A stretch of 64,000 nucleotides of DNA from Harriotta raleighana (lineage: Eukaryota). Position numbers: made by a program. Of this stretch, positions 14,374-17,300 are shown piece after piece. The stretch is from the NCBI GenBank assembly GCA_050575255.1, contig JBNZDD010013686.1:3778801-3842800 (forward strand), written 5' to 3'. Position 1 is the stretch's first letter. The number at the start of each line of letters is the position of its first letter.

Positions 14374-17300
14374 TGAGGGAATTATGCTAATGATAATTTA
14401 ATTTGCAGTCTCTAAAAGCACCACGAAAATTATCAAGTGTGAATGCATATTTCTCTGATAAAATAACCTCTTCTAGCTGGTATGATATCCTTGTTTTGCC
14501 AGGCATGAGTAATTTTCTGACATTAAAGCCTACATAGAATGTCATCGAAATTAAATGAGTCAACTTCACTCAGGAACTTGAGTAAAATGTCTAGCCCAGG
14601 GTGGATTTCATTATGAACTTCTAGATTCTGCACTTCAAGGTCCAAGACAGTAACATACCAAGAAGTAAAGTTGCTACCATTAGCGAATAATCCCCAGATC
14701 AATCTACTGTACTCAGCATTATTTCCTTGAGAGTTTATTCAGATGAGTATGTTCAAAATATGGGTGATCAGTCCACTGACAAAGCAAGACTTCATTACTG
14801 GTCTCCTGCTCATTTATTTAACCCATTTATTTCTGAACTTGACCTACTTGAATCTTGTCAGAATCTGATTCCATAGAACAAACTATCCAATCTACTTGGA
14901 GCAACGATGCGTGACCTGAATAATCCTGATTTGAACGTAAATACTTATCCTAACATTTGTCAGTAGAGGTGAGATTCAGGTTCATACAATGTTCATGTTG
15001 TTTTCCCGCTGGTGGATACTCAGCAGTTTTGTGTACCTTTTTTAAGTCTTCCCTTTTGCAATTAAGCGAGGTGTCTATTTTCAGTTATTTACTCTATAAT
15101 CAATATAAACGGTAGCCATTCTACTTAAATTTGGACTTGGGATCGTCAATTCTTTTATCAATAACATCTTAAGACCTTTGCCATTGTAAGGGTCTTTTTT
15201 GTTATATACACACAGGAAGTTGACCAACTGCGCATGGAAAGATTACAAATAGATGAACAACTTCGACAGATGGGCGCAGGTTCAAGACCCCCAGCAAGTC
15301 GGTCAGATAAAGAAAGAGGTTATGCAACTGATGACAGCACAAGTTATTTGCGTGGTGGCAGACCTTACAGTGGTAGAGGACGTGGCAGGCGAGGACCAGG
15401 ATACGCATCAGGTTCTACTTATGTTCACGTTAAAATTGGGCCAATTTAGAGAACAGCAAGATTTATAGAAGTGGCACGATGTTTTTAAATTAAAATTGTA
15501 GATAAATAAAGCAAAAGTAAGATCATAAGGTTGAGAATTTGGTTGCCAGCCGCAATATGCATTCCCAGCCCTCTTGCAAGCTTCACCACTTAATGTTGAA
15601 TTGTTTAATAGAGAGTATTCCTTACATTTCAGAAAGGAAAACATGAGAGCAATCTCGCAAACTGATTGCAGTAAAGTCCTTAAGTAACATTCTAGTCAAG
15701 GCTGGGAGATGTCTGCAGTCAGGGCCATCCCATTTTTTTTGTCAATGGAAGGAATTAAAACAGAAACCTATATAACTATGTAACTAAACTGATTGAAAGC
15801 GAACTTGGGTTCTGTCTTTTGTATATGCAAAGCTTTAATTTTGCTTTGATGCTGTTTATAGGGACTGAAATGGGGTGTAAATATAATAAGCGGACATCAG
15901 ACTGTTTGAGTACAGTTTATTGTGTAATCCATTATTTGTTGAATGAGATTTTAAGACGCTATAAGTGTCTTATTTTTGCTCCTCTCGAGGTAATAATTCT
16001 GAAGCATCAAACACTTCTGAAACTGAATCAGAACATAGAGATGAGCTAAGCGATTGGTCACTGGCTCCAACAGATGAAGAAAGAGAAAATTATTCCCGTA
16101 GGATTGATAGTCGTAGGCGTGGTAATACTGGCCGTGGGCGTGGTGGAGGGCGTGGCCGTGGGGGGATCAAACATCCATCTGCAACTTCAGGTAAATGGCC
16201 AGTTTTTCAAAGCCTGCAATTGTTTCAACTTTATCATAATAAATTTATCATTTTTTAAGATATTTCCTTTTTAAATTGACAGATTGTTTGTAGTTTACAG
16301 CACCAATTGATTTAATCCATTAAATTCTAGAAGTTAACAAATTGACTAATAACACTCAATTGCATTGTTACTCGTGTTTTGATAGAAGATAGCTAAGCCA
16401 CAATCTGACAGTTTGCCAGAATAATCAATTATGTTCAGTCAACCTGATTCACAGCATTTTATTTTTACATTTTAGATGAAATCTTGAGAGGAGACATCCG
16501 TAAACGCAATTCTTCAAGAGACTCAAAGGCCAGGATGGCAGATGGATCATTGCAGGTAACCTTTCAATTGTGGTACTTCATTAAAAATAAACTCAGAATT
16601 CTCCACAGTGGATGACACAGCTCACCATTAGGCCCAATAGGATTTCAAATTTTTAATTCTCTGAGGTAAATGTCAGTGTCCATGAACTTTCCCCTCTCCC
16701 CCGCCCACCCCCCCCTCCCCCCCCCTCCTTTCCACTACACACTTTTAAATTTGATTTTTTTTTCTCTCTCCCCTCTTTCGCTGGCACACCCAGATTGGGA
16801 AATCATTATATGGAGAATCTCAGGTATGAACCTACATTGTACTGCTTTGAAGCAAATTGTTTTGCAATCCTGATTATAATTTAAAGTAGGTAGTGAGAAC
16901 AATTGTTGTTTTTTTTTTAAAAAGATGCCCACAAATGACTGACTGAAAATTTGCTGGGTTTTTCCTTGGTCATCCTGAGCACATTGCAATGACAGCAGGG
17001 ATTATTTCCATTTGGAGAAAACTGCAATGTGAAACATGTGGTCCATGTTGCTAGTGACTTGGGGTTCTCACACGCACTTAAGAGCCATTTATGTAAATGT
17101 TTAGCTATAGTTTTTTTTTTACTAATCGCCTGGTTTAATTCTGTGGTTTGAATGGATAAATGTGGTCACTCAATCCACAAATGTTTGTTGGACACTGCTG
17201 TATGTAATTGGCTGCTATGTTTCACTCACAAATTATATATTGTCAATTCACTTGACAGTATATGCTGAAGCACTATATTGAATGCAAGGATGGTTTTTGG

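What the first reader, a model, noticed from the sequence alone, without database searches (positions are those of the whole stretch)
16741..16830. Candidate unannotated 30-nt in-frame microexon in the last FMR1 intron
Seen in sequence: between the exon-16 and exon-17 equivalents there is a long pyrimidine tract (tttttttttctctctcccctctttc) and a cag| acceptor. It is followed by ATTGGGAAATCATTATATGGAGAATCTCAG and a strong CAG|GTATGA donor. The 30 nt have no stop and are phase 0/0 like the host intron, so inclusion would insert IGKSLYGESQ into the disordered C-terminal tail after DGSLQ. A C-rich block at 16691-16728 just upstream could bind regulators. Established: FXR1 has a tissue-specific short cassette exon in its C-terminal region. 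I know of no such exon in FMR1. Inference: this may be a lineage-specific or ancestral tissue-regulated FMRP isoform.
Basis: partly seen in the sequence, partly recalled or inferred. Interest (0 to 1): 0.75.

Follow-up and report, generated by a model that had tools for sequence, protein, structure and literature searches.

The report
Conserved FMR1 microexon in cartilaginous fishes
A 30-base mini-exon in the last intron of the fragile-X gene FMR1 is real: many shark gene models insert nearly the same ten amino acids at the same spot, so it is an old, optional part of the protein in cartilaginous fishes, and it was not seen in any bony-vertebrate model examined.

Summary
Window 16794-16823 (+) is a 30-nt open, phase-0/0 segment (IGKSLYGESQ). 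It has a cccag| acceptor and a CAG|GTATGA donor and lies between the last two FMR1 coding exons. Only 7 of 2000 dinucleotide shuffles of the intron give an equally good in-frame pair.

The decisive evidence is comparative. Public FMR1 models of 8 named shark species, plus one unnamed batoid-like transcript-length contig, carry a 10-residue insert (I/T/V-G-K-P-x-Y-G-E-S-Q) at exactly this junction. Three of those shark species also have the skipped form. Seven of the 10 residues are invariant, as conserved as the flanking exons.

None of 189 bony-vertebrate entries examined has the insert. The window's gene is chondrichthyan but falls outside sharks plus rays. The exon therefore appears to span crown Chondrichthyes.

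"Unannotated / unknown in FMR1" holds for mammals and for the papers I could search, but not for shark gene models. Tissue regulation and function remain untested. A CU-rich, 115-nt AG-free acceptor region suggests regulated, PTBP-type control (inference).

The parts
16476..16555 (+). Penultimate constitutive coding exon (human exon-16 equivalent, 80 nt). It ends ..DGSLQ at a codon boundary, with donor CAG|GTAACC.
   Evidence: (tblastn with shark P0001). Donor score 8.0 and acceptor score 4.9.
16677..16791 (+). AG-free zone of 115 nt upstream of the microexon acceptor. It is the longest of the gene's 15 acceptors (the next longest are 90 and 78 nt).
16691..16728 (+). C-rich block (runs of C interrupted by T/G/A). 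A possible poly-C-binding-protein site. Similar C-rich tracts recur elsewhere in the window.
   Evidence: CCCC motif positions; weak blastn matches at 61229-61271 and 20838-20862.
16755..16779 (+). 25-nt uninterrupted polypyrimidine run with TCTCT and TCTT motifs. 40 of the 50 bases at -52..-3 are pyrimidines, the highest count in the gene.
16792..16793 (+). Acceptor AG (cccag|ATT).
   Evidence: Score 7.95 bits.
16794..16823 (+). 30-nt cassette microexon, phase 0/0, encoding IGKSLYGESQ.
   Evidence: tblastn with shark P0001 residues 518-529 hits 16791-16826. Orthologous inserts appear.
16824..16829 (+). Donor GTATGA (CAG|GTATGA).
   Evidence: Score 8.01 bits.
17440..17610 (+). Last coding exon (exon-17 equivalent): [11 protein letters not shown]...LVNGVS plus the stop codon, with acceptor tttcag|ATC.
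   Evidence: 84-88% identical to shark FMR1.

Best explanation
Window 16794-16823 is a genuine protein-coding cassette microexon of FMR1, conserved across cartilaginous fishes.

When the spliceosome uses the acceptor at 16793/16794 and the donor at 16823/16824, ten residues (IGKSLYGESQ) are inserted in frame between ..DGSLQ and IRIDSNNE.. in the C-terminal tail of FMRP. This tail lies downstream of the RGG box and is, from my own knowledge, disordered. When the exon is skipped, 16555 joins 17440 directly, which is the only form seen in bony vertebrates.

Shown: the exon's sequence, frame and splice sites are intact here. The same insert is present, and optional, in relatives.

Inferred: both forms are made in this species too. 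I also infer that the choice is regulated through the unusual acceptor region: a 25-nt CU-rich tract with UCUCU/UCUU motifs, a C-rich block, and a 115-nt AG-free zone implying a distant branch point. That architecture is typical of PTBP-type repressed exons (about 0.3 confidence for this step).

The invariant G-K and Y-G-E-S-Q residues point to a short linear motif (possibly a Tyr or Ser-Gln phosphosite) rather than a mere spacer. This last point is speculation.
For: 1. The anatomy is intact: AG/GT sites, 30 nt, no stop, phase 0/0.

2. The splice-site pair is rare. It is the only such pair on the + strand of 64 kb, and 7 of 2000 intron shuffles match it.

3. Orthologous inserts exist. Of 17 chondrichthyan-type FMR1 entries, 10 carry a 10-residue insert at the identical junction. 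The named species are Mustelus asterias, Pristiophorus japonicus, Chiloscyllium plagiosum, C. punctatum, Heterodontus francisci, Stegostoma tigrinum, Scyliorhinus canicula and Cetorhinus maximus. The tenth entry is unnamed P0122. The other 7 entries join exons 16 and 17 directly. The carriers span both shark clades, Galeomorphii and Squalomorphii.

4. It is alternative. Pristiophorus (P0002/P0003), C. punctatum (P0006/P0008) and Heterodontus (P0009/P0011) each have both forms.

5. There is independent transcript-level support. P0122 is a 580-aa protein seen on 4 contigs, the longest 2633 nt. That can only be spliced RNA, since the same coding region spans about 16.8 kb here. It carries VGKPQYGESQ between batoid-type flanks.

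6. The constraint looks coding-like. 7 of 10 insert columns are invariant across the window and 8 proteins. The figures for the flanking exons are 17 of 26 and 34 of 56.

7. The conservation is deep. The window's FMR1 shares 52 derived sites with sharks plus rays against bony vertebrates. At 6 sites it keeps the bony-vertebrate state where sharks and rays share a change. No site groups it with sharks alone or with rays alone. Holocephali is the only other named chondrichthyan subclass.

8. It is not a repeat. The exon and its flanks match nothing else in the window.

9. The acceptor architecture is the most extreme in the gene.
Against: - There are no RNA data for the source species, so inclusion here is inferred.
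- The shark entries are computational gene models, and I could not inspect their transcript support.
- The three named ray representatives (Mobula, Pristis, Narcine) and Hemiscyllium show only the skipped form.
- Position 4 is S here and P in all 9 other inserts.
- No UGC motif lies in the 200 nt upstream, and no (U)GCAUG lies within 200 nt on either side. The usual neural-microexon enhancers are therefore absent and the regulator is unknown.
- The splice-site matrices were written from memory, so the scores are rough.
- The placement outside elasmobranchs rests on only 6 sites.
Confidence: 0.88

Rival explanations
1. The exon is real but constitutive (or nearly so) in this species, so it is simply an ordinary small exon rather than a regulated cassette.
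For: Its splice-site scores fall in the range of the gene's constitutive exons. In several sharks the form with the insert is the one numbered X1.
Against: Three shark species are modelled with both forms, and four chondrichthyan representatives show only the skipped form. The exceptional AG-free zone and pyrimidine tract are features of regulated exons (recalled knowledge).
Confidence: 0.08
2. The exon is a relic in this lineage. The sequence is still recognisable but is no longer spliced into mRNA, or it is kept for another reason such as an intronic regulatory element.
For: There is no expression evidence for this species. One substitution (S for P at position 4) is unique to the window.
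Against: Both splice sites, the frame and 9 of 10 residues (against Mustelus P0001) survive in a lineage that sits outside sharks plus rays. An unused intronic stretch would not be expected to keep them. Only 7 of 2000 shuffles reproduce such a pair.
Confidence: 0.04
3. The insert is a gene-model artefact copied from one shark annotation to the next by protein-homology guidance, and the window resembles it by chance.
For: All named carriers are automatic predictions, and I could not view their evidence.
Against: An unnamed transcript-length contig set (P0122: 4 contigs, the longest 2633 nt) carries the insert independently. The window's raw DNA has the same peptide with correct splice sites at the correct position. 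The insert varies between species at 3 positions, as a real evolving sequence would.
Confidence: 0.03

Closest known systems
Shark FMR1 'isoform X1'-type gene models with the 10-residue insert (e.g. Mustelus asterias P0001, Heterodontus francisci P0009, Chiloscyllium punctatum P0006)
   Same: Same gene, same junction (after DGS[LM]Q, before IRIDSNNE), same length. 9 of 10 residues match Mustelus, and G-K and Y-G-E-S-Q are invariant.
   Different: The window has S where all others have P (position 4). The window's gene lies outside the shark plus ray group, so this is the deepest-branching copy seen. No gene model or transcript is available for it here.
Mammalian FMR1 exon-17 alternative acceptors 17A/17B
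   Same: In-frame isoform variation at the very same exon 16/17 junction of the FMRP tail. In my set, 38 of 189 bony-vertebrate entries use the short form ..SLQ|NTS... The event is described in PMC9158170 (passages).
   Different: There, an alternative 3' splice site removes residues from the start of exon 17. Here, a separate cassette exon adds 10 residues. No sequence relation exists between the two variable segments.
FXR1 exon 15 (27-residue cassette of the muscle isoforms)
   Same: A paralogue of FMR1. It is a short in-frame cassette in the C-terminal region, used tissue-specifically, and reported to change G-quartet RNA binding (PMC1802556, passages).
   Different: It is 81 nt, not 30 nt. 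It lies next to the RGG box between exons 14 and 16, not in the last intron. Homology to the present exon was not tested, because no FXR1 sequence was retrieved.
Neuronal microexons in translational regulators, e.g. the 24-nt CPEB4 microexon
   Same: A very short in-frame exon in an RNA-binding translational regulator (PMC12628316, search listing and start of abstract only).
   Different: A different gene. The upstream UGC enhancer motif that I recall as typical of SRRM4-dependent microexons is absent here. At 30 nt the exon is above the strict 27-nt limit (recalled).

Membership tests
FMR1 orthologue (host gene) | Collinear match to FMRP over all coding exons, closer to FMR1 than to anything else retrieved | tested here: met
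   tblastn of shark FMR1 P0001 finds 16 collinear coding segments at 836-17607. 527 of 569 aligned codons are identical. All named hits that carry a gene name are FMR1/FMRP; the rest are labelled 'hypothetical' or 'uncharacterized' protein.
Frame-preserving cassette exon | AG acceptor and GT donor, length a multiple of 3, no stop, phases compatible with both neighbours | tested here: met
Frame-preserving cassette exon | Included in mature mRNA | not testable with these tools
   No RNA data for the source species. In relatives it is present in 10 of 17 chondrichthyan-type entries, one of them (P0122) on transcript-length contigs.
Frame-preserving cassette exon | A skipped form also exists (alternative, not constitutive) | not testable with these tools
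   Cannot be tested for this species. In relatives, three shark species have both forms.
SRRM4/eMIC-dependent neural microexon | Length of 27 nt or less (strict definition, recalled) | tested here: not met
   The exon is 30 nt. It would pass broader definitions (51 nt or less, recalled).
SRRM4/eMIC-dependent neural microexon | UGC motif shortly upstream of the 3' splice site (recalled) | tested here: not met
   No TGC in the 200 nt upstream of 16794.
SRRM4/eMIC-dependent neural microexon | Neural-specific inclusion | not testable with these tools
   No expression data.
PTBP-type repressed exon with distant branch point | CU-rich tract with UCUCU/UCUU motifs at the acceptor | tested here: met
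   TCTCT at 16763 and 16765, and TCTT at 16774, within a 25-nt pyrimidine run. These motifs are common and not diagnostic.
PTBP-type repressed exon with distant branch point | Long AG-dinucleotide exclusion zone (recalled criterion) | tested here: met
   115 nt, the longest of 15 acceptors in the gene.
PTBP-type repressed exon with distant branch point | Inclusion rises when PTBP is removed | not testable with these tools
   Needs a minigene or knock-down experiment.
Homologue of the FXR1 exon-15 cassette | Same intron position and sequence similarity | not tested
   No FXR1/FXR2 sequences were retrieved. The position differs according to PMC1802556.

The most novel reading that the evidence does not exclude
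The exon is an ancient gnathostome module, older than the split of cartilaginous and bony vertebrates. It switches a phospho-regulatable G-K..Y-G-E-S-Q motif into the FMRP tail in particular tissues. Bony vertebrates lost it and came to vary the very same junction by the 17A/17B acceptor choice instead. On this reading, the exon 16/17 junction is a long-standing control point of FMRP function.
Probability: 0.12. Interest if true: 0.6.

Novelty: new member of a known kind. Interest (0 to 1): 0.4.

Why it matters
FMRP's C-terminal tail is, from my own knowledge, where RNA binding, ribosome association and condensate behaviour are tuned. Its isoforms have been catalogued almost only in mammals. 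This 10-residue cassette has been kept, with 7 invariant residues, since before sharks, rays and the window's lineage separated. That marks the exon 16/17 junction as functionally sensitive, and it offers a natural insertion variant for testing what this part of the tail does. For genome annotation, it shows that the exon should be modelled in this species as it is in sharks. It is not a new kind of mechanism. The exon is already in public shark gene models, so the surprise is moderate.

Tried and rejected
1. Exonised transposon. Rejected: blastn of the intron against the window finds repeats only at 17158-17291 (SINE-like) and in the C-rich block, not at the exon.

2. Neural-microexon enhancers. 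There is no TGC in the 200 nt upstream and no TGCATG/GCATG within 200 nt on either side.

3. Listing cluster members to see hidden isoforms of rays and others.

4. A whole-library representative search with shark P0001. It gave 150 unnamed proteins. Some may be human, so I left them unopened, apart from P0151, which names as Acipenser ruthenus. This search therefore added nothing on FXR1/FXR2 or on other lineages.

5. Four unnamed hits with tetrapod-like identity (P0012, P0015, P0098, P0355) were likewise left out of all scans.

6. Orthologous intron DNA. Codon-level synonymous/non-synonymous tests and conservation of the C-rich block could not be done.

7. Literature. Five searches found no paper describing an exon between FMR1 exons 16 and 17 or FMR1 splicing in cartilaginous fish. 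The term sets were: FMR1 + microexon; FMR1 + alternative splicing + shark; FMR1 + Callorhinchus; FMR1 + cartilaginous fish; and FMR1 + FXR1 + FXR2 + evolution + exon-intron. I saw only listings and abstract starts. Subscription journals and supplements were not covered.

8. The 24-residue insert of Pristiophorus isoform X3 is not encoded in the corresponding window intron.

Exons were searched one at a time and compared codon by codon.

Full report
**What is in the sequence.**
The window carries a complete, compact FMR1 gene on the + strand. tblastn with a shark FMR1 protein (P0001, Mustelus asterias) finds 16 collinear coding segments from the start codon at 836 to 17607.
- The exon-16 equivalent (16476-16555) ends ..DGSLQ at a codon boundary, with donor CAG|GTAACC.
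- After a 238-nt intron comes cccag|ATTGGGAAATCATTATATGGAGAATCTCAG|GTATGA (16794-16823), which reads IGKSLYGESQ.
- After a further 616 nt, the last coding exon starts at 17440 (IRIDSNNE...), with the stop at 17608-17610.

The window holds 10 single-N positions, all beyond 20 kb. None touches this locus and none was filled. I read the window as chondrichthyan, not human (see below).

**Is it more than chance?**
An open 30-nt frame means nothing by itself, because all three frames are open across it. The splice-site pair is another matter. I scored sites with rough position-weight matrices written from memory.
- The acceptor scores 7.95 bits and the donor 8.01 bits. That is mid-range among the gene's own 14 acceptors and 14 donors.
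- It is the only acceptor/donor pair 3-51 nt apart on the + strand of the whole window that reaches both scores. The - strand has 4 such pairs, 3 of them in-frame and open.
- Of 2000 dinucleotide-preserving shuffles of the intron, 7 produce an equally good in-frame open pair and 30 a pair of any length. One search had used rounded thresholds and is superseded.

**Comparative evidence.**
I searched the window's exons one at a time and built no joined model.

The translation of the last exon (159 significant among 167 candidates, 120 listed) retrieved shark FMR1 models in pairs that differ by exactly 10 residues. Aligning the 11 shark entries shows that 7 carry an insert precisely between DGS[LM]Q and IRIDSNNE, and 4 lack it.

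A second search used the C-terminal 99 residues of the database protein P0001 (62 significant among 166 candidates). It added:
- Scyliorhinus canicula (IGKPPYGESQ);
- Cetorhinus maximus (IGKPLYGESQ followed by N and a stop);
- three ray representatives without the insert (Mobula, Pristis, Narcine);
- an unnamed entry, P0122, with ray-type flanks and VGKPQYGESQ.

P0122 is a 580-residue protein seen on 4 contigs, the longest 2633 nt. It must therefore come from spliced RNA, which gives transcript-level support independent of gene models.

In all, 10 of 17 chondrichthyan-type entries have the insert and 7 join the exons directly. Pristiophorus japonicus, Chiloscyllium punctatum and Heterodontus francisci each show both forms. 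The carriers include both shark clades, Galeomorphii and Squalomorphii.

Across the window and 8 proteins, 7 of 10 insert columns are invariant (G-K and Y-G-E-S-Q). The flanking exons have 17 of 26 and 34 of 56 invariant columns. The microexon is thus as constrained as its coding neighbours.

**Distribution outside cartilaginous fishes.**
A third search used the window's exon 15216-15410 (716 significant among 1633 candidates, 120 listed). It added bowfin and sturgeon entries to the lungfish and coelacanth entries.

I scanned 206 of the 359 stored proteins. The 153 left out were unnamed: 149 and 4 tetrapod-like ones. None of the 189 non-chondrichthyan entries has the insert:
- 141 join exon 16 directly to exon 17;
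- 38 use the known short acceptor (..SLQ|NTS..);
- 2 end ..SLQN;
- 8 have unreadable or different C-termini.

Teleosts, amphibians, cyclostomes and FXR1/FXR2 were not among the named hits, so the exon's origin is not settled. It could be a chondrichthyan gain or a loss in bony vertebrates.

**Where the window sits.**
Exon-by-exon codon comparison gives 92.3-92.6% identity to sharks, 90.4-90.5% to rays and 77-81% to bony vertebrates.
- At 52 sites the window, sharks and rays share a state against bony vertebrates.
- At 6 sites sharks and rays share a change while the window keeps the bony-vertebrate state.
- No site groups the window with sharks alone or with rays alone.

The window is therefore chondrichthyan but outside elasmobranchs. 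Holocephali is the only other named subclass. This rests on few sites. If it holds, the exon has been kept since the base of living cartilaginous fishes.

**How it probably works.**
Shown: an intact, conserved, optional 30-nt coding cassette.

Inferred: regulated inclusion. The acceptor region is the most extreme in the gene:
- a 115-nt AG-free zone (next longest 90 and 78 nt), implying a distant branch point;
- 40 of 50 pyrimidines upstream;
- a 25-nt CU run with TCTCT/TCTT motifs, and a C-rich block.

As far as I recall, this architecture is typical of exons repressed by PTBP-type proteins. The enhancer motifs I recall for neural microexons are absent: no UGC upstream and no (U)GCAUG nearby.

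The insert lands in the FMRP tail exactly where mammals vary the protein by choosing between acceptors 17A and 17B (PMC9158170, passages). The invariant Y-G-E-S-Q suggests a short linear motif, but its function is unknown.

**Comparison with what is known.**
- Mammalian FMR1 splicing, as listed in PMC9158170 (passages), comprises exons 12 and 14, acceptors 15A-C and 17A/B, and a cryptic exon 9a. No cassette in intron 16 is listed.
- The paralogue FXR1 has a 27-residue muscle cassette (exon 15) that alters G-quartet binding (PMC1802556, passages). It lies at a different position.
- Five literature searches (listings and abstract starts only) found nothing on this exon.

It is nevertheless already present in public automatic gene models of sharks. 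The finding is therefore a new, deep-branching member of an annotated but undescribed exon, not a new kind of feature.

**What stayed unchecked.**
- RNA evidence for this species.
- Transcript support of the shark models.
- The 149 unnamed representatives, which were left unopened because some may be human.
- DNA-level conservation of the intron and the C-rich block, since no vertebrate genome collection was available.
- Any joined-model search, which was left out by instruction.

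Noticed in passing
window 17430-17450 (+): Tandem acceptor at the last exon: tttcag|ATCAG|AATTGA. Using the second AG (5 nt downstream) would read N then a stop, cutting off the whole exon-17 tail. Protein models ending this way exist in Cetorhinus maximus (P0126..GESQN), Podarcis raffonei (P0299) and Rhineura floridana (P0301) (both ..DGSLQN). This may therefore be a conserved truncating splice choice.
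   Followed up: partly
window 2538-2762 (-), 26753-27012 (+); fragments at 17158-17291, 39731-39831, 39940-39980, 40619-40680, 59315-59479: A dispersed SINE-like repeat. Two copies sit next to tRNA-like heads that pass the Rfam tRNA threshold (2702-2762 on the - strand, 26753-26824 on the + strand). A body fragment lies in the intron downstream of the microexon.
   Followed up: partly
window 1-1000: The FMR1 promoter/5' region is CpG-island-like (GC 0.60, CpG observed/expected 1.01). It has no CGG-type run of 3 or more units. Instead there is a (CAA)5 run at 313-327 and CT/GA-rich low-complexity arrays at 1015-1421.
   Followed up: partly
window 4856-5094: A 29-nt tandem repeat with 8.6 copies (85% matches) in the first intron of FMR1.
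   Followed up: no
window 15409-15417 (+): The donor of the exon preceding the RGG-box exon is very weak (CAG|GTTCTA, score -0.8, the lowest of 14 donors). In mammals the corresponding exon (14) is itself alternatively skipped and the next exon has three acceptors (PMC9158170 passages).
   Followed up: no
window 13503-14349 (+): As in sharks, the coding sequence runs ..KKIPREE directly into GMVPFVFVG... The long KH2 variable loop that I recall from mammalian exons 11-12 is therefore absent in this lineage.
   Followed up: no
P0003 (Pristiophorus japonicus isoform X3), alignment A1 columns 213-236: Another optional insert, of 24 residues, lies between ..KQLE and SSRQ.. in one sawshark model. 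The corresponding window intron (11381-11805) does not encode it.
   Followed up: yes
window 18000-64000: Downstream of FMR1 there is no stop-free frame of 130 residues or more that looks like a gene (6 frames listed; none was searched). Ten single-N positions lie between 20252 and 44146.
   Followed up: no
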